Positions 43,952 through 51,072 of a stretch of 64,000 nt of DNA are shown in pieces (position 1 is the stretch's first letter; each line of letters begins with the position of its first letter). The notes under the pieces were generated by a model. The model was not told where the DNA came from. It saw nothing but the letters and a program-made list of their open reading frames with translations, and ran no database searches. The position numbers and the translations under genes were made by a program. Source of the stretch: a virus; the IMG/VR virus record IMGVR_UViG_3300021963_009993, positions 64,001 through 128,000 of that record; one strand, written 5' to 3'.

Positions 43952-44308
43952 TTAGATTTTTTTTATTGGTTGCAACATAATTTTTTGTATTTTTGGCTGA
44001 GGTATTCTAAGCAATTCATTTTTATAATTTAAAAATTTAGGAGCCATATTTATTGGTAAATTTTTATAACCATATTTCCTTAATGTATCACAAAATTCAT
44101 TGAAATCTTTACAATCTTGCACAATTAATTCCCAAAGCATTCTTTGTGGTTGATAAAAATTCTTTAGCTTATGGTAATCTGCATCGGGTAGATTTAATTC
44201 TTCCAGAGAATCAATTCTATGCAAGTATGATTTGGTGCTTGCATTTTCACAAACACCAAGCAATTCTACTGCTGTCTTATCTCTTCTTGCCATAAAAAAA
44301 TACTGCAT
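43952..44308 (-). CDS. Hypothetical protein
   Basis: 118-aa ORF with AAAGGTT SD-like sequence. Confidence 0.6.
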   Translation of the reverse strand: MQYFFMARRDKTAVELLGVCENASTKSYLHRIDSLEELNLPDADYHKLKNFYQPQRMLWELIVQDCKDFNEFCDTLRKYGYKNLPINMAPKFLNYKNELLRIPQPKIQKIMLQPIKKI

Positions 44309-44434
44309 TTCTAACCTTTCATTTTCTTGGATGACTGAAGAAGAATTTTGAATAATTCTTCTAATAAAATATCTTTTTGAATAGAATTCTCCCCAAGCAT
44401 TTCTATTAAAGAATCAAATGATTCATTAGTTGAT

Positions 44435-45013
44435 TTGATAATTTCCTCTTTACTCGGTGTTTTTATGTCTTCCATAGAAAATCTTTCGATTATTAAAAAT
44501 AATTTACCTATTATTTATAAGGGATCTGATGTTTGTATGGCAGCCAAATTATTGATATTAAAGAAAAATATTAAAACAAAATACCCAGAACTAAAAATCT
44601 ATTTCGTTTTTGATGAGAAAATTATAAAATATTTAGAGTTAACAAACACCATCTCAATACAGGATTATGAAAAGTATCAAGGAAATTTCGTCAAAGAATG
44701 CATAGTCGATAGTAGTCTGGAAGACTTTTGTGAAAAAAATGACATTGATATGTTTGTTTGTCATTCAAGAATCAACAATTCATTCCAAGATGAAAATATA
44801 ATTGAAACAATTCTTACCAAACATACAAATGATTTTTTCTTAAAAACTATAGATAATGGTGTTGATTCTGTGTTTTTTGGCAGAGAATCTCCAGAAATCA
44901 TAGAAGCAGCGTACATGGGAAACAAGGTGGTTTTGATTGAAAGCGGTTCTGGAACGGTTTCTTTTCAGAAAATGTTTCCAGATACAAGAATAATAAGCGG
45001 CGATAATAGATAA
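44435..45013 (+). CDS. Degenerate GT9-like protein
   Basis: DVCMAAKLL...KTKYPELKIYFV and GVDSVFFGRESPEIIEAAYMGNKVV resemble GT9 N- and C-terminal motifs; start probably ~44465. Confidence 0.4.
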   Translation: MIISSLLGVFMSSIENLSIIKNNLPIIYKGSDVCMAAKLLILKKNIKTKYPELKIYFVFDEKIIKYLELTNTISIQDYEKYQGNFVKECIVDSSLEDFCEKNDIDMFVCHSRINNSFQDENIIETILTKHTNDFFLKTIDNGVDSVFFGRESPEIIEAAYMGNKVVLIESGSGTVSFQKMFPDTRIISGDNR

Positions 45014-45035
45014 GTATAAGACAATATTAAAGGAG

Positions 45036-45596
45036 ATGCCGATGAGTGTGTTCAAAGTAGTATTAAACAACAAATATATGGGTCAACTTGATATTGACCC
45101 ACGAACAGGTGCCCAAGAGGTTCCATCCATTCAACGCACCATGTTTGCGCCCGGACCACACGGTACTTTCCGTGAAATTGCCGATGGCACAACATTCACC
45201 GATTGTAATTACTGGAAAACATACGCTTATCCAGCACTACCCCATGACCAAGCTTTTATACAAGTGCTTGTAGATGATGGTAGTATTTGGACTCCAAACG
45301 ATGAATTTAACACAGTTCCAACGGTAAATACAGGAACAATAGCAGCAGCAGGTTCTGTAACTATTGACTATACCTTGAACGGTGGAAGCTATGCTGTTTT
45401 CACACAGATAAGCAACACAGGCAGCAATCCCATGACAGTCGTACTAAATGGTTCATCCGCTCCATTTACCTTGGCTGGTGGTAATACTCAGGTTTTCAAC
45501 AAGGGAGACTTGAATATTTCAGCAATCACACTTGCATCTACTCTAGGAACAACCTACACAGTAATCGCAGGTACTACAGCTGTTTGCTACACCTAA
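45036..45596 (+). CDS. Putative virion protein (beta-rich, G/T/S-rich C-terminal domain)
   Basis: AAGGAG SD; phage-structural composition; followed by a terminator. Confidence 0.6.
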   Translation: MPMSVFKVVLNNKYMGQLDIDPRTGAQEVPSIQRTMFAPGPHGTFREIADGTTFTDCNYWKTYAYPALPHDQAFIQVLVDDGSIWTPNDEFNTVPTVNTGTIAAAGSVTIDYTLNGGSYAVFTQISNTGSNPMTVVLNGSSAPFTLAGGNTQVFNKGDLNISAITLASTLGTTYTVIAGTTAVCYT

Positions 45597-45619
45597 CAAA
45601 AAATTCAAAATATAAATCG

Positions 45620-45656
45620 AAAGAGGGGAAGAAAATTCTTCCCCTCTTTTTCTTTT
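45620..45656 (+). terminator. Intrinsic terminator
   Basis: aaagaggggaag-aaaatt-cttcccctcttt followed by a T-tract. Confidence 0.8.
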
Positions 45657-45661
45657 AAATT

Positions 45662-46615
45662 ATGAAGTTTTTCAATCCTGTGATTCATAATAAGAATGTC
45701 TCTATTAAAGATTTTTATGAAATAAAAAACAAAATATGCATTGTTAGATCCAGCGGAGGTCTTGGAGATATCGTTAATATGAGAATGATATTTCAAGATC
45801 TAAAATTAAAATACCCACAGTTTCATGTAACATGGGCTATTCCACATGGCTATAAGGATGCAGGGGCAAACCATCCATATGTTGATAATTTAATTGACTA
45901 TCAAAGCATAAATCTCAAAGAATATCTAAAAATTTATAATTTAACAAATGCTTGTACAAAATATGAATGGAGATTGGGAAAAGACAATGACAAGAATAGG
46001 GCAGACATATGGGCGAATCATGTAGGATACAACTTAGATCATGCAAATACATTTATGCCTAATTATGATTGTTATTTTACAAATATAAGAAAAAAACTTC
46101 TAAAACTTGGATGGAATGGTGATAAAAAAATAATTGCTTTGGCACCCAAATCAGCTTTGGCTACTAAAAACCTAACTTTTGAAATTTGCAAGAAAATAAA
46201 AAACCTTACTGAAAGATATTTTGTTTTTGCAATACACAACGCACCAATAATAGAAATGTCAGAACTGAAAATACCAGTTTTCTGCGGGGACACTCTAGCT
46301 GAAAGTATGGCATCAATACAGATGTCTGATGGTGTAATTACAACAGATACTGGCCATATGCATATTGCCGGTGGATATGGAAAACCAACTATGGCTATAT
46401 TTTGTTACACAAATGGGAAGATAATAACAAAACATTATCCAAGTGTTCATGTTGTTCAAAAACATTTTGATGAATTCCCTGAATGGTGTGGTCCATGCAA
46501 CAATTCAAATAACTGTCACAAAACAAAACTAATACCTAAACCTTGTATGGAAGAAATAACAGAGGAAATGTTGTACAATTGCTGGGAAAATGTCGAAAAA
46601 TTACTAAATATATAA
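45662..46615 (+). CDS. Glycosyltransferase family 9 (heptosyltransferase-like)
   Basis: GGLGDIV...LKLKYPQFHVTW, ANHPYVD, IALAP, ITTDTGHMHIAGGYGKPTMAIF. Confidence 0.85.
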   Translation: MKFFNPVIHNKNVSIKDFYEIKNKICIVRSSGGLGDIVNMRMIFQDLKLKYPQFHVTWAIPHGYKDAGANHPYVDNLIDYQSINLKEYLKIYNLTNACTKYEWRLGKDNDKNRADIWANHVGYNLDHANTFMPNYDCYFTNIRKKLLKLGWNGDKKIIALAPKSALATKNLTFEICKKIKNLTERYFVFAIHNAPIIEMSELKIPVFCGDTLAESMASIQMSDGVITTDTGHMHIAGGYGKPTMAIFCYTNGKIITKHYPSVHVVQKHFDEFPEWCGPCNNSNNCHKTKLIPKPCMEEITEEMLYNCWENVEKLLNI

Positions 46616-46617
46616 GT

Positions 46618-46860
46618 ATGGCAAACTTGATACAACCAAGCCAAGTAAAAGTAGTAACAAATAATGGCGAAGTAACAGTTCATTTGACGATTGATTTAAA
46701 TCTCAATTTAAATCAAAACGGCAGTATTGGTGTTTCAGAAGATAGTAGTGACAGGCAGGTCACTAGTTTTTCAAAACCAAAGAAAAAAGATGATGATGAC
46801 AAGGTGATGTGGGAAGTACCTGATTTCAAACCGTCAGAAAAACTAAAATTTGGTAAATAA
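46618..46860 (+). CDS. Small hypothetical protein upstream of the actin-like gene
   Basis: Start reassigned to ATG 46618 (MANLIQPSQVKVVT); fills the gap between GT9 and actin. Confidence 0.6.
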   Translation: MANLIQPSQVKVVTNNGEVTVHLTIDLNLNLNQNGSIGVSEDSSDRQVTSFSKPKKKDDDDKVMWEVPDFKPSEKLKFGK

Positions 46861-46914
46861 ACTTTGCATAACTACTATAAAGTAAGGAATAAAAATAATA
46901 AGAGGAGTGAAAAA

Positions 46915-47922
46915 ATGTCTAATATAGGATTCGACTTTGGTACTTACAATTTAGTTTCTTGCAAAAGAAGCGATGACAAAAAATTCTCTTACAAAAGAGA
47001 AATCAATGCTTTCTTGGATCTACCTCTTGAGAATCGCTTTGTTTTTAACATGATGAAGACAGCTGGGGTTCCTTTAATTGAACGAGAAAATGTAGCATAC
47101 GCACTTGGAGAAAGTGCTGTAAACATGGCCTATACTTTGCCAACATTAGAATTAAAGCGTCCCATGAAAGATGGTTGTGTAAACCCAAAAGAAAAAGATG
47201 CATTTCAAATCATGAGCATCATGGCACATAGTTTGATTGATCCAATTGAAAAGGATGGAGCAAATCTTTATTACAGCGTTCCAGCCAATGCAATTAATCA
47301 AGAAACAGATGCTGATTATCACAACAAAGTTTTGGAAGCCATATTCAGGGGCTATGAATCAGACGAGGGCTACAAAGTAAATCCCAAGCCCGTAAACGAA
47401 GCTCTAGCCCTCGTATATGCAGAACTTCAAAAGAAGGCATTTACTGGCATCGGTGTTAGCTGTGGTGCAGGCATGGTAAATGTTTGTTACGCCATGTATG
47501 GAAATCCAATATTCCAATTTGCAATAGTTAACTCTGGTGACTGGATTGACAAGCAAGCTGCTAAAGCAACAGGCGAAAGCCCAACATTCATTAACAAAGA
47601 AAAGACCAAGGTTGATTTGGGTGCTGCTCCTACAAACTTAGTTGAGAGAGCAATAATAACTCAGTATAGATTGATGATTGAGAAGACAATTCAAGGAATT
47701 AAAGAAGGATTAGCTACTTCCAAAAAAGCGATTAAATCAGAACATCCAGTTGACTTTATAGTTGCTGGTGGTACTGCAAGTGCCAAAGGTTTTACCGAAA
47801 TTTTCAGCGAAACTTTAAAATCAGCTGAATTATCGATTCCTGTTGGAGATGTTATTCGCCCAGCAGATCCACTTTACTCCGTAGCCAGAGGCTGCCTAAT
47901 AGCTGCCGAAGCCGCAAATTGA
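46915..47922 (+). CDS. Actin-like ATPase (ASKHA fold; volactin/MreB-like)
   Basis: Phosphate-1 IGFDFGTYN, RPMKDG, connect-1 VNEALA, phosphate-2 GVSCGAGMVNV, adenosine IVAGGTA, connect-2 PLYSVARGCL; AGAGGAG SD before ATG 46915. Confidence 0.88.
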   Translation: MSNIGFDFGTYNLVSCKRSDDKKFSYKREINAFLDLPLENRFVFNMMKTAGVPLIERENVAYALGESAVNMAYTLPTLELKRPMKDGCVNPKEKDAFQIMSIMAHSLIDPIEKDGANLYYSVPANAINQETDADYHNKVLEAIFRGYESDEGYKVNPKPVNEALALVYAELQKKAFTGIGVSCGAGMVNVCYAMYGNPIFQFAIVNSGDWIDKQAAKATGESPTFINKEKTKVDLGAAPTNLVERAIITQYRLMIEKTIQGIKEGLATSKKAIKSEHPVDFIVAGGTASAKGFTEIFSETLKSAELSIPVGDVIRPADPLYSVARGCLIAAEAAN

Positions 47923-47933
47923 AAGGATGAAGG

Positions 47934-48392
47934 ATGTCTTCTAAAGAAATTGTGCAGAAAAATATACAAGACTTGGGTGTGGCTGCGTACATCTTAATGC
48001 ATTCATATCCACTTGCTGGAAGAAAAGATAGAACTTTTATTTTCAGCGTTGAAAAATCAAAACTTATGGAATTTGAAGATCTTAAAACAGCATACCTTTT
48101 TAGTGAATTTCATTATTTTGATCATTGCTTAATGGGTCTTAAAAAACTTGAAGAATATCCTTTTGGAATAAATTCAAACAAATTTGTTACAGATCTTGGA
48201 GCAGCAGCCTTCATTTTGATGCACAAATTCAAATTAATAGGCAAAAAAGGAAGAGCTTTTTATTTTGATATGTCAAGCAAAGATGAAGAAAATCAATTTG
48301 ATGATTTGAATTTACAATATGCAAGTTCTGAATTCCATGACTTTGACTCTAAATTGATGTCACTCAAAAAAATAAATGAATTTATAAGATGA
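47934..48392 (+). CDS. Tandem two-repeat protein (DUF5659-like, putative DNA-binding)
   Basis: Two ~70-aa copies of DLGxAAxILMH...F.F...SEFHxFDxxLMxLKK. Confidence 0.6.
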   Translation: MSSKEIVQKNIQDLGVAAYILMHSYPLAGRKDRTFIFSVEKSKLMEFEDLKTAYLFSEFHYFDHCLMGLKKLEEYPFGINSNKFVTDLGAAAFILMHKFKLIGKKGRAFYFDMSSKDEENQFDDLNLQYASSEFHDFDSKLMSLKKINEFIR

Positions 48393-48397
48393 AAATG

Positions 48398-48403
48398 TAA
48401 ATA
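48398..48403 (+). promoter_or_regulatory. TAAATA, representative T4 late-promoter-like box
   Basis: Also upstream of starts at 12054, 32653 (+) and 12036, 8923, 52894, 56653, 63470 (-); weak evidence in an AT-rich genome. Confidence 0.4.
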
Positions 48404-48407
48404 ATAT

Positions 48408-49727
48408 ATGCAAAAAATAAAAAGCCTAAAACAATATTTAAGTGAAGAATCTGCTGGTGCTGCAAGTCCAGCAGCACCAGCAGTTGTTTCAAATGAAAAA
48501 ATCAAACAGCTTTCTGAGCTTATATCAAAATTTTTAACTAGACATGTTGATAATCTAAAAAGGGAACTTTTAACTGGTCAGTATCAGAAACAAGGATTCT
48601 TTAGTTCTTTAAATAATTGGTGGAATAACCTAATCTATGGAAGTAGAAATAAAAAGAATCCTTACTATTACCAGAATGTTTTTGGCAGACTTGGAGTAAA
48701 AGAAAGCGTCATTCCAACGCTTGCTGAATATCAGTATCTTGAAAAACAAGCTTTGATTTTAGAACAGGAAGTTGCTGCTGGCACCAAGCTTGAAAAAATA
48801 CTCGATGCATGGTCTAAAACATTCAAAGTTGGTTTAGAGGAAATAATCTACGGTTGTATAGCAAAAGGTAATTGTGAATTAAGCGATCTTAGTCCACAAG
48901 AACTTGAAGCAAAGACAGTAGAAAGACTCAATACGGATAAATCTGTGGAAGATCATGGTGAAGAAGAAACTCCACCAGTTGATACTAGCACAACCACAAC
49001 GACAACGACACCTGTTCCTTTGCCAATTCCACCAGCAGAAGTTTTAGATATTGACTTGTCAAAAAGAAACGAAGTCAGGAAACACAAAGCTCTGATAGAT
49101 AATTGGTTCAGACCTTGGATGGCTTTAGATAAAAGACAACAAAATAGACTTAACAAAGAACAAAACGGTGACTTGTTTGTTGATAGTCCAATGGCACATG
49201 AAAAGATTGGTTACTTTGATATACAATTACCTTTGATGCTCTTGAAAAAAGATCCAAGATATCAGACAATACAAGAACATTTTCCAAATTATCTACAAAA
49301 AATGATTGCTGAGAATAGAGCGCAAAGTCCTACAGAAACCGATGAACAAGCTATTATGAGAGGACTAATAAGATATTCAGATTTCAATTTGCAAATAGCA
49401 AAGAATAAAAACATTTATGGAAGCGAAGTCTACAATATCATTCAAAGAGATCCTGCAATATATGAATATATTAAAAGCAATATAGATAGACTTAAATATT
49501 TTAATTCTAATTTAGATGATATAGAAAATGGAAAATACGACAGAGAAATGTTACAAGACTTTATTGATACATTAAAAAACAAAAAGATTGATGAATTACT
49601 TGGATTAACTGAAAGTAAAAAAGCCCTAAAATCTTTGAGAGATTATAATCATATATCTTTTGATGATACATCAACACTTTACGAAAGAACCTTGGTTTGT
49701 TTAGAAAAAATAAGATCAAGAGATTAA
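48408..49727 (+). CDS. Hypothetical protein with capsid-targeting-like N-terminus
   Basis: Starts MQKIKSLKQYLSEE; central T/P linker. Confidence 0.7.
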   Translation: MQKIKSLKQYLSEESAGAASPAAPAVVSNEKIKQLSELISKFLTRHVDNLKRELLTGQYQKQGFFSSLNNWWNNLIYGSRNKKNPYYYQNVFGRLGVKESVIPTLAEYQYLEKQALILEQEVAAGTKLEKILDAWSKTFKVGLEEIIYGCIAKGNCELSDLSPQELEAKTVERLNTDKSVEDHGEEETPPVDTSTTTTTTTPVPLPIPPAEVLDIDLSKRNEVRKHKALIDNWFRPWMALDKRQQNRLNKEQNGDLFVDSPMAHEKIGYFDIQLPLMLLKKDPRYQTIQEHFPNYLQKMIAENRAQSPTETDEQAIMRGLIRYSDFNLQIAKNKNIYGSEVYNIIQRDPAIYEYIKSNIDRLKYFNSNLDDIENGKYDREMLQDFIDTLKNKKIDELLGLTESKKALKSLRDYNHISFDDTSTLYERTLVCLEKIRSRD

Positions 49728-50066
49728 GTTTTTAAAATCGTCCAAACTTTTCGGATGCTGCAATGGTGTTGAAACCTCATGTTGTGCTTTCACAATTTTT
49801 TCTACATCTATTGGATTTTGATCTTCTGACTTATGGACAAATTGCTCTTCAGCAATTAAATTTATAAAATTATAAAATATAAAATTCTTTTGTTTTGTTG
49901 CTGGGTGTTCATACCATATTCCAGCCTCATCTACATCAATTATTTTTCCAACAAAATAATCAACCAATTGTTTCTCTTCAAAATTTCTGTTTATTGGGCC
50001 TGTGAAAAAGGTAACGATCTTGTTTTTGAAATATTCTAAGTTTCTTCTTTGCTGACCACTAACCAT
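49716..50066 (-). CDS. Hypothetical protein (possible Sm-like beta fold)
   Basis: Start reassigned to 50066; FVGKIIDVDEAGIWY beta pattern; downstream of primase. Confidence 0.55.
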   Translation of the reverse strand: MVSGQQRRNLEYFKNKIVTFFTGPINRNFEEKQLVDYFVGKIIDVDEAGIWYEHPATKQKNFIFYNFINLIAEEQFVHKSEDQNPIDVEKIVKAQHEVSTPLQHPKSLDDFKNLIS

Positions 50067-51072
50067 ATGAATACTCACTTTCGTAGCTGGATTCGTTACT
50101 ATCAATATAACCCCTTATTATTTGAGTATCATGGTGAATTAAAAATTCATTCCAATCCTTCACTATGGATGGAGGTCTGACAAATGTTATTCTGTTAGAT
50201 GTGCCTAACTCAGAAAAAGAATTAAGCTTTTCAACCATCTTCGATATTGCACTTTGACCAGCTTCATCAGCATCTAATGCCATGCATACTTTGTACTTGG
50301 ATAGCAAGATTGCCTGTTTGTCACTAAGATTTTTTCCTCCACATGCAACTGAGTTCAAACCAACTTTTTTCAAAGACATAGCATCAAATTCGCCTTCACA
50401 AAGATATATTTTTTCTCCTTTGCTTGGCCATTTTGTGAAATAAAGAACATCTTCTTTTCCTACACCTATGTCTTTTTCCGGGCCTCTATAACGCAATTCG
50501 CTACCAACTATGCTTCTGCCGTTGAAGTAAATTAAATTTCCTTCCTCGTCATAATAAGGAATTATTATTCTGCCCGAATATTTACCACCCAAACAAATGT
50601 ACAATTCACTTATGTCTAGATTTCTGCTAGCCATATAATTCTTGGCTCTTTGATACCACATTTCTGGGGCTAATGATATCGACATGGTGTGTGGTGGAAG
50701 ATTTATTGTTTTAAATTTGGCTGATTCATAAAGCTCTTCAGCTGTAATTGTTCTCTCTCCGAATTCTAATTCCAACTCATCTTCTATAGGTCTGCCACCC
50801 GATCTTTTAATGCCTAAAATCTGCATCGCTTCATTTTTACTACATTTGTCCACATGCATCACTAAGCCAAGCAGAGTGCCCTTTTTTTCGCTTTTAAAAC
50901 AATGATAAACACCAGAATTTATCTTCCTTTTGCCACCTTCTGGATTACACCAAAGGTGATTTTTCTGGTCTTCTGTAAAGACTGAATTTATGCGTACTTC
51001 TTTGCCATTAATTTTGACATTATCAAATCTTTTTTCTGCCCAATCAACAAACATATCAAAATCAACAGGCAT
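50059..51072 (-). CDS. DNA primase (DnaG/gp61-like, Zn finger + TOPRIM)
   Basis: YHCFKS zinc-finger remnant, IIIPYYD...YFNGR, LCEGEFDAMS, ALDADEAG. Confidence 0.9.
   Translation of the reverse strand: MPVDFDMFVDWAEKRFDNVKINGKEVRINSVFTEDQKNHLWCNPEGGKRKINSGVYHCFKSEKKGTLLGLVMHVDKCSKNEAMQILGIKRSGGRPIEDELELEFGERTITAEELYESAKFKTINLPPHTMSISLAPEMWYQRAKNYMASRNLDISELYICLGGKYSGRIIIPYYDEEGNLIYFNGRSIVGSELRYRGPEKDIGVGKEDVLYFTKWPSKGEKIYLCEGEFDAMSLKKVGLNSVACGGKNLSDKQAILLSKYKVCMALDADEAGQSAISKMVEKLNSFSELGTSNRITFVRPPSIVKDWNEFLIHHDTQIIRGYIDSNESSYESEYSYG

What the first reader, a model, noticed from the sequence alone, without database searches (positions are those of the whole stretch)
46618..48392. Phage-encoded actin-like cytoskeleton module (volactin-like ATPase with flanking partners)
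The 335-aa protein has all five actin-fold motifs intact. Its signature strings (RPMxxG, LYYSVPA, YH, NE.LA.vY.EL, FTGIGVSxGAGMxNV, GDWIDxQAAxATG, GGT.S.KGF, PLYSVARG) match my recollection of the haloarchaeal volactin-type/uncharacterised bacterial actin family rather than ParM or FtsA. Large phages are known to use tubulin (PhuZ), and few actin cases are characterised. It is in an apparent operon with a small upstream ORF and a downstream tandem-repeat putative DNA-binding protein, like ATPase-plus-adaptor partition cassettes. Hypothesis: filaments position phage DNA or capsids, or remodel host cell shape.
Basis: partly seen in the sequence, partly recalled or inferred. Interest (0 to 1): 0.9.

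Follow-up and report, generated by a model that had tools for sequence, protein, structure and literature searches.

The report
Huge-phage volactin-type actin with two partners
A fragment of a roughly half-megabase uncultured phage encodes its own strongly conserved actin-like protein of the "volactin" family, almost always flanked by the same two small phage-only genes. These tubulin-less giant phages therefore probably build their own actin filaments, though no filament or binding has yet been shown.

Summary
Window 46915-47922 (+) encodes a 335-aa actin-fold ATPase. It matches Pfam Volactin (PF25216) end to end at 215.7 bits against a cut-off of 35. Its AlphaFold model has pLDDT 94.7. The nearest solved structures are the filament formers MamK, BeeR, MreB and actin.

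The window is part of a 181-kb virus record that CheckV rates 38% complete, with baseplate, primase and portal genes.

The three-gene unit is real:
- An 80-aa gene sits upstream and a 152-aa two-repeat gene downstream, with gaps of 54 and 11 nt.
- In 80 related viral loci the partners occur in 76 and 79.
- The triad persists down to 45% actin identity; the downstream partner alone persists to 33%.

The actin is the most conserved gene of the neighbourhood (median 71% identity against 43% for primase). In some relatives an intein splits it inside the phosphate-2 loop. A complete 595-kb relative has one volactin gene and no tubulin.

The downstream protein shows no DNA-binding fold. No centromere-like repeats lie nearby, so a ParMRC-type cassette is not shown.

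Filament formation, partner binding and the cellular role are inferred.

This scan has already noted the same kind of system in over 100 other genomes. I found no paper describing it.

The parts
45619..45650 (.). Perfect 14-bp hairpin followed by a T run, terminator-like on both strands. It ends the upstream 186-aa gene and marks the likely start of the transcription unit GT9 / small ORF / actin / repeat protein / 439-aa gene.
   Evidence: I16: 14-nt arms, 100% complementary
45662..46615 (+). GT9-like glycosyltransferase, 317 aa. Its stop lies 2 nt before the small ORF. It is a frequent but not obligatory neighbour.
   Evidence: Pfam PF01075 6.2e-07; present in 56 of 80 related loci
46618..46860 (+). 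80-aa partner 1 (candidate adaptor). It has a conserved N-terminal strand-like module (..VK..T.DGE....I.L.LNINLN), a variable Ser/Asn/Lys/Glu linker, and a near-invariant C-terminal peptide W-x-(I/V)-P-D-F...K-x-x-F-G-K.
   Evidence: present in 76 of 80 loci, usually -4 to 16 nt before the actin; no Pfam, PHROG or Atlas relative
46900..46907 (+). Shine-Dalgarno-like AAGAGGAG, 7 nt before the actin ATG; supports the 335-aa start.
46915..47922 (+). Volactin-family actin-fold ATPase, 335 aa (P0001).
   Evidence: Pfam PF25216 215.7 bits; AF2 pLDDT 94.7, pTM 0.92; Foldseek top hits MamK, BeeR, MreB, actin at TM about 0.7; profile against PDB gives MamK 6e-15
47458..47463 (+). Codons Ser-182 and Cys-183 in the phosphate-2 loop. 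In relatives a Hint + LAGLIDADG intein is inserted exactly here (..GVS | C...HN | CGAGMVNV). This window has no intein.
47934..48392 (+). 152-aa partner 2: two tandem copies (about residues 1-76 and 77-152) of a phage-specific ~70-aa alpha/beta domain (DLG.AAY.LMH...G.KGK..F....FD...Y.SS.FH.FD..LMSLKKI.EY). Single-copy versions exist in related phages.
   Evidence: AF2 pLDDT 95, pTM 0.86; no known fold; present in 79 of 80 loci
48408..49727 (+). 439-aa downstream gene with a poly-Thr/Pro linker. It is poorly conserved (detectable in 44 of 80 loci, mostly partial matches) and probably not a core part of the module.

Best explanation
This is a phage-encoded actin filament system. P0001 is a genuine member of the volactin family of actins, belonging to a phage-specific branch. 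It most likely polymerises with ATP into filaments, as its nearest characterised relatives do (volactin, MamK, MreB, BeeR). The 80-aa protein made just upstream is proposed to be an adaptor. Its near-invariant C-terminal peptide would dock on the actin, as ParR does on ParM, AlpA on AlpC, or the FtsZ tail on FtsA. Its N-terminal module would bind cargo or self-associate. The downstream protein is a pseudo-dimer of a phage-only ~70-aa domain and is a second obligate partner, acting as a regulator, cap, bundler or cargo link. In these roughly 0.5-Mb phages, which lack tubulin, the system would organise the infected cell, for example by positioning replication or assembly sites or moving particles. 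Shown here: family membership, fold, strong purifying selection, conserved gene triad, phage-specific partners. Inferred: polymerisation, both interactions, and the cellular role.
For: Family and fold. Phage origin and genome size. There are 128 relatives in IMG/VR and 1269 proteins in the large database, on contigs up to 673 kb. Synteny: partners in 76 and 79 of 80 loci with operon-like spacing. The triad also occurs in LR756511.1 (595 kb), in five more viral contigs, in a 546-kb phage contig binned in a MAG, and at 45% actin identity. The repeat-domain partner persists at 33% actin identity. At 41-46% identity the upstream small ORFs keep only a C-terminal F...K(P/E)..(K/R)FG tail while the N-terminus changes; one has a TM helix. 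This is what an actin-docking tail would predict. The partners are absent from 79 cellular volactin loci. The actin is the most conserved gene nearby (median 71% against primase 43%). An intein sits in the ATP-binding loop of relatives, as is typical for indispensable, conserved proteins. There is one volactin and no tubulin in a complete 595-kb relative. Precedent: prophage AlpC with the upstream adaptor AlpA (PMC4446434). Volactin forms dynamic filaments in vivo (PMC10869688).
Against: The phosphate-2 Asp of MamK/MreB is Ser here, so ATPase kinetics may differ. Neither partner has a recognisable fold or family. Timing of expression is unknown and no promoter stands out. Other phage volactin lineages have different neighbours, so the partners are lineage-specific rather than universal.
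Confidence: 0.55

Rival explanations
1. A ParMRC-type (type II) partition cassette that segregates the phage genome as an episome during a carrier or pseudolysogenic state. The small protein or the repeat protein would bind a centromere and couple it to growing actin filaments.
For: The gene order, small protein plus actin plus small dimeric protein, resembles adaptor-plus-actin cassettes. Some cellular volactins are fused to a ParB HTH domain (P0162). AlpAC of a prophage links phage DNA to actin.
Against: No iterated or centromere-like repeats occur in 44300-50200. There is no ParM/StbA Pfam hit. The partners show no RHH or HTH fold and are acidic to neutral (pI 5.7 and 6.5). The unit lies directly after tail-fibre and glycosylation genes in a baseplate-bearing, T4-style virulent-looking genome.
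Confidence: 0.1
2. A host-takeover device. The phage actin and its partners perturb the host cytoskeleton or divisome to enlarge the cell or block division for a very large virion. The small protein's (D/E)(I/V)PxF tail would mimic the FtsZ C-terminal peptide.
For: The small protein's tail W-E-V-P-D-F resembles the E. coli FtsZ tail D-I-P-A-F. It follows a disordered linker, as in FtsZ. Archaeal volactin affects cell shape.
Against: The shared motif is only about 4 residues and is not kept in deeper relatives, where the K..FG part persists instead. The tight coupling and co-conservation with the phage's own actin point to an internal partner rather than a host target.
Confidence: 0.12
3. A non-polymerising ASKHA enzyme or chaperone, such as a sugar kinase serving the adjacent glycosyltransferases.
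For: It is co-transcribed with a GT9-like gene. Glycosylation genes are common around volactin genes in related phages.
Against: The top sequence and fold neighbours are MamK, BeeR, MreB and actin. Sugar kinases are absent from the top 50, and Hsp70 and EutJ score far lower. The MreB/MamK-type RPMxxG motif is present. GT9 is missing in 24 of 80 loci while the triad stays.
Confidence: 0.05

Closest known systems
Volactin (VolA, HVO_2015) of Haloferax volcanii; Pfam PF25216 (Schiller et al. 2024, PMC10869688)
   Same: Same Pfam family, matched end to end well above the cut-off. It shares the family signature motifs, including Ser in phosphate-2. Volactin forms dynamic filaments in vivo.
   Different: The gene is phage-borne. 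In the tree it lies in a separate, mostly viral branch, not in the archaeal clade. It has two phage-only partner genes that are absent from cellular volactin loci. A role in rod-to-disk shape change cannot apply as such.
AlpC/AlpA of Corynebacterium glutamicum prophage CGP3 (Donovan et al. 2015, PMC4446434)
   Same: A phage-encoded actin with a small co-transcribed adaptor gene just upstream. It is thought to organise viral replication.
   Different: A different actin family is likely, though no AlpC sequence was compared here. AlpA binds DNA in its own promoter, whereas here no DNA-binding fold or repeat site was found. This system has a second obligatory partner and sits in a virulent-looking half-megabase phage.
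MamK (magnetosome actin; PDB 5LJV, 5JYG), then BeeR (8R2N) and MreB
   Same: These are the closest solved structures by profile (6e-15) and by fold (TM 0.70). They share RPMxxG, the E..A motif, GAG and GG(T/S).
   Different: Only about 17% identity. The MreB Pfam score is below its cut-off. The phosphate-2 Asp is replaced by Ser. No MamJ, RodZ or MreCD-type partners are present.
ParMRC type II plasmid partition
   Same: An actin plus small partner proteins in one operon. The partner may use a C-terminal tail to bind the actin (inference).
   Different: No ParM-family match, no parC-like iterons and no RHH adaptor.
PhuZ tubulin spindle of nucleus-forming jumbo phages
   Same: A phage-encoded cytoskeletal polymer in very large phages; a possible functional analogue.
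   Different: PhuZ has a tubulin fold, not an actin fold. The relatives checked here have no tubulin gene.

Membership tests
Volactin family (Pfam PF25216) | Full-length match to the family HMM above the curated cut-off | tested here: met
   215.7 bits against 35, profile 3-321 of 321; 215.2 bits in the genome search
Volactin family (Pfam PF25216) | Actin fold with four subdomains and nucleotide-binding motifs | tested here: met
   AF2 pLDDT 94.7; Foldseek to MamK, BeeR, MreB and actin; motifs aligned to MamK, with Ser for Asp in phosphate-2 as in the whole family
Volactin family (Pfam PF25216) | Forms dynamic filaments in vivo | not testable with these tools
   Shown only for H. volcanii VolA (PMC10869688)
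Archaeal volactin proper (VolA orthologues) | Groups with the haloarchaeal clade in a family tree | tested here: not met
   The window's protein lies in a separate 21-row branch of viral and viral-like sequences (SH-aLRT 81). The Halobacteriales/Methanobacteriota rows form their own clade (98). The tree is 'quick' with a long outgroup branch.
MreB/Mbl (PF06723) | HMM match above the cut-off | tested here: not met
   17.5 bits against a cut-off of 27, short stretch only
ParMRC type II partition system | ParM-family actin | tested here: not met
   No ParM/StbA family among Pfam hits at E up to 0.1
ParMRC type II partition system | Centromere of iterated repeats next to the operon | tested here: not met
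   No repeat array in 44300-50200
ParMRC type II partition system | Small DNA-binding adaptor (RHH-type ParR) | tested here: inconclusive
   The repeat protein's model matches no DNA-binding fold. The 80-aa protein was not modelled here, and the Atlas model is unusable (pLDDT 0.20).
AlpAC-type phage actin system | Small adaptor gene immediately upstream of, and co-transcribed with, the actin | tested here: met
   Gene order and spacing; co-transcription is inferred from spacing only
AlpAC-type phage actin system | Adaptor binds phage DNA and the actin; actin related to AlpC | not tested
   No AlpC or AlpA sequence was at hand; binding needs experiments
DUF5659 (PF18903) for the downstream repeat protein | HMM match above the cut-off (23.6 bits) | tested here: inconclusive
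   Only sub-threshold hits for two single-repeat relatives (16.3 and 13.2 bits). None of 39 short homologues carries PF18903 in the precomputed tables. The Atlas feature hit, 0.81, is to a cluster where 37% of members carry it.

The most novel reading that the evidence does not exclude
Half-megabase, tubulin-less phages run a self-encoded actin cytoskeleton of the volactin type, a counterpart of the PhuZ tubulin spindle. It would use two new classes of actin-binding partner: a tail-docking adaptor whose N-terminal module is swapped between lineages (soluble strand module here, membrane anchor elsewhere), and a phage-only dimeric domain. The system would be needed to organise replication or virion assembly in the infected cell.
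Probability: 0.35. Interest if true: 0.8.

Novelty: new variant of a known kind. Interest (0 to 1): 0.62.

Why it matters
Phage-built cytoskeletons are known mainly from the tubulin PhuZ of nucleus-forming jumbo phages and from one prophage actin, AlpC. Here an actin of a family named only in 2024 turns out to be a widespread, very strongly conserved gene of the largest known phages. It comes with its own dedicated partner proteins. If it polymerises, it offers a second, independent solution to organising a giant-virus-like infection in a bacterium. It would also supply new actin-binding modules for study and show that the volactin family is largely bacterial and viral rather than archaeal. 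All three proteins are small and can be expressed, so the central claims are directly testable without culturing the phage.

Tried and rejected
- PHROGs gave no hit for any of the seven local proteins.
- A single-sequence search of PDB found nothing for the actin; only the profile search did.
- Foldseek on PDB and BFVD and VIA-align wide gave only generic alpha/beta matches for the repeat protein (best Z 5.0). No fold assignment is possible, and this is no proof of a new fold.
I replaced it with a degenerate two-motif DNA pattern, which finds only members that keep M-V-N-V and G-D-W-I-D. The cellular range it shows is therefore a lower bound.
- LR745208.1 (485 kb, actin 32% identical) and the contexts of P0150 and P0131 lack both partners, so the triad does not extend to all phage volactins.
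- The promoter scan was no better than shuffles.
- Literature searches (volactin; actin-like + huge phages; jumbo phage + MreB; huge phage + actin; DUF5659; LR756511) returned no paper on phage volactins.
- Host assignment remains open. One 546-kb relative is binned in a Bacteriovoracaceae MAG, which is weak evidence at best.

Full report
WHAT IS THERE

The window is bases 64001-128000 of a 181,260-bp IMG/VR virus record that CheckV rates 38% complete, which implies a genome near 0.5 Mb. The window carries a baseplate wedge gene, a DNA primase and a portal gene and has about 34% G+C.

On the + strand, a terminator-like perfect hairpin at 45619-45650 is followed by five tightly packed genes:
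- a GT9-like glycosyltransferase (45662-46615);
- an 80-aa ORF (46618-46860, P0002);
- a 335-aa ORF (46915-47922, P0001), preceded by AAGAGGAG;
- a 152-aa ORF (47934-48392, P0003);
- a 439-aa ORF (48408-49727, P0004).

THE ACTIN

P0001 matches Pfam Volactin (PF25216) over the whole profile (1.5e-63, 215.7 bits, cut-off 35). MreB reaches only 17.5 bits, below its cut-off. PHROGs has no family for it.

A profile of 62 homologues finds MamK (6e-15), BeeR (1e-10), MreB (1e-9) and FtsA (2e-6) among solved structures. The AlphaFold model is confident (pLDDT 94.7, pTM 0.92). Its best Foldseek matches are the MamK filament, the BeeR filament, MreB and eukaryotic actin, at TM about 0.7.

The alignment to MamK shows the shared RPMxxG, the E..A motif, GAG and GG(T/S) motifs. 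It also shows that the phosphate-2 Asp is Ser-182 here, as in the whole family.

DISTRIBUTION

- IMG/VR holds at least 128 relatives.
- The 5.8-billion-protein set has 1269 hits, many on contigs of 100-673 kb.
- The 50%-identity library has 891 clusters at E up to 0.001.
- GenBank phages give two uncultured huge phages: LR756511.1 (595 kb, 65% identity) and LR745208.1 (485 kb, 32%).

A two-motif DNA scan of GTDB genomes shows that the family is also chromosomal in several groups:
- Planctomycetota, with long N-terminal extensions;
- Omnitrophota, often as tandem pairs;
- Terriglobia, Patescibacteria and Nitrospirota;
- Halobacteriales.

In a quick ML tree rooted on E. coli MreB and FtsA, the window's protein falls in a separate branch of viral and viral-like sequences (SH-aLRT 81), apart from the archaeal clade (98). 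The outgroup branch is long, so the deep order is unsure.

THE TRIAD

I tested 80 viral loci whose actins are 65-88% identical to P0001:
- the 80-aa gene is detectable in 76, and the two-repeat gene in 79;
- most of the loci that lack a partner or the 186-aa gene are cut by contig ends;
- the upstream 186-aa gene is in 71, GT9 in 56 and the convergent primase in 46.

Spacing is operon-like: mostly -4 to 16 nt before the actin and -4 to 36 nt after it.

The same block occurs in:
- LR756511.1, with a single-repeat partner;
- five further viral contigs;
- a 546-kb contig binned into a Bacteriovoracaceae MAG, which also carries a portal homologue and is therefore a phage genome;
- a contig whose actin is only 45% identical (GT9, a small protein at E 9e-6, the actin, a single-repeat partner at E 6.5e-17).

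At 33% actin identity the repeat-domain gene is still adjacent (E 2e-33). At 41-46% identity two other lineages keep an upstream small ORF that shares only a C-terminal F...K(P/E)..(K/R)FG tail. One of these has an N-terminal transmembrane helix instead of the strand module.

Other phage volactins have unrelated neighbours. None of 79 cellular volactin loci has either partner.

THE PARTNERS

The 80-aa family has three parts:
- a conserved N-terminal strand-like module;
- a variable low-complexity linker;
- a near-invariant C-terminal W-x-(I/V)-P-D-F...K-x-x-F-G-K.

The (D/E)(I/V)PxF core resembles the FtsZ C-terminal peptide, which reads DIPAF in E. coli. That peptide is known to dock on the actin-fold protein FtsA (established knowledge, from memory). 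This is a lead, not a test.

The 152-aa protein is two copies of a ~70-aa domain. Its model is confident (pLDDT 95, pTM 0.86; each repeat runs strand-helix-strand-strand-helix-helix) but matches nothing convincing in PDB or BFVD. Hits to DUF5659 stay below threshold. With a pI of 6.5 and no HTH or RHH fold, the label 'DNA-binding' is unsupported.

SIGNS OF IMPORTANCE

Across the same loci the actin is far more conserved than its neighbours:

| Gene | Median identity |
|---|---|
| Actin | 71% |
| Repeat protein | 53% |
| 186-aa protein | 44% |
| Primase | 43% |
| Small protein | 40% |
| GT9 | 35% |

Several relatives carry a Hint + LAGLIDADG intein inserted exactly between the residues equivalent to Ser-182 and Cys-183, in the phosphate-2 loop. 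Free-standing GIY-YIG endonuclease genes sit between the small gene and the actin in four loci.

Five related records each have one volactin gene: the window's own, the complete 595-kb genome, the 546-kb phage contig and two records of about 300 kb. None of the phage sequences has a tubulin gene. The only tubulin hit lies on a different contig of the MAG and is presumably the host FtsZ.

MOST LIKELY MECHANISM

The best-supported reading is a phage-built actin filament system:
- the actin polymerises;
- the small protein docks by its tail and links to cargo or membrane through its exchangeable N-terminus;
- the repeat-domain dimer is a second dedicated partner.

The closest functional precedent is AlpC/AlpA of prophage CGP3, where an upstream adaptor ties phage DNA to actin filaments and both are needed for efficient replication (PMC4446434). 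Volactin itself forms dynamic filaments in Haloferax (PMC10869688). Polymerisation, the two interactions and the cellular role are inferences.

RIVALS

- A ParMRC-like partition cassette. No iterons, no ParM match and no DNA-binding fold.
- A host-takeover device that uses FtsZ-tail mimicry. The motif is short and not kept at depth.
- A non-polymerising ASKHA enzyme tied to glycosylation. The fold neighbours argue against it, and GT9 is dispensable.

NOVELTY

Phage actins and the volactin family are each known. The combination found here is new: a volactin-branch actin as a conserved gene of half-megabase phages, with two phage-only partners. I could find it in no searchable paper.

Within this scan it is not new. 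Earlier notes and follow-up reports describe the same kind of system in more than 100 other genomes, some with membrane-anchored adaptors. My own tests reproduce the main points independently on this window.

Noticed in passing
L089:1723-3852, L092:1332-3446; proteins P0124, P0129, P0132, P0134: Relatives of the actin are split by a class-1 intein (Cys1 ... His-Asn, +1 Cys) with a LAGLIDADG endonuclease. It is inserted in the phosphate-2 loop at the position of Ser-182/Cys-183 of the window's protein.
   Followed up: yes
L042:5258-6001, L060:5263-5982, L068:5262-5993, L053:1822-2328: Free-standing GIY-YIG homing-endonuclease-like genes (GIYGI...G.IY(V/I)G(Q/K)) are inserted between the small partner gene and the actin in some relatives.
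   Followed up: partly
L015:7022-7675, L019:6198-7196, L034:7023-8072, L032:3822-4772, L057:3882-4652, L079:1701-2633, L084:6077-6769: In about a dozen relatives an extra gene of 217-349 aa with no known family lies between the actin and the repeat protein. Several copies share a motif like KYPV.E...F(K/R)T..D...VWM.E.YF.
   Followed up: no
L147 (contig CALFYV010000090.1, 546,147 bp; G001:C90): A 546-kb contig binned in a 'Bacteriovoracaceae' MAG carries the whole syntenic block and a portal homologue. It is probably a near-complete huge-phage genome, and only a weak host hint. Its portal ORF is 1254 aa against 837 here, with the match in two pieces, so it may hold an insert such as an intein.
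   Followed up: partly
proteins P0162 and P0203; loci L094-L173: Cellular volactin-family proteins occur in several forms: fused to a ParB HTH domain, fused to a Wzz/BY-kinase (ParA-like) module, with 350-600-aa N-terminal extensions in Planctomycetota, and as tandem paralogues in Omnitrophota and Halobacteriales. The family is far broader than haloarchaea.
   Followed up: partly
window 48443-48491: A 21-nt inverted repeat (13 pairs counted, 9 of them G-C) lies inside the start of the 439-aa gene, in the stretch encoding Ala/Pro-rich residues, followed by TTGTTT. It may be an attenuator or just a coding palindrome.
   Followed up: no
window 45036-45596: The 186-aa acidic protein (pI 4.5) upstream, ended by the strong hairpin, is conserved in 71 of 80 related loci and has no family hit. 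It is possibly an abundant structural protein.
   Followed up: no
L208:5583-5894: A relative's contig encodes a ribosomal protein S21 homologue (PF01165) two genes downstream of its actin triad.
   Followed up: no
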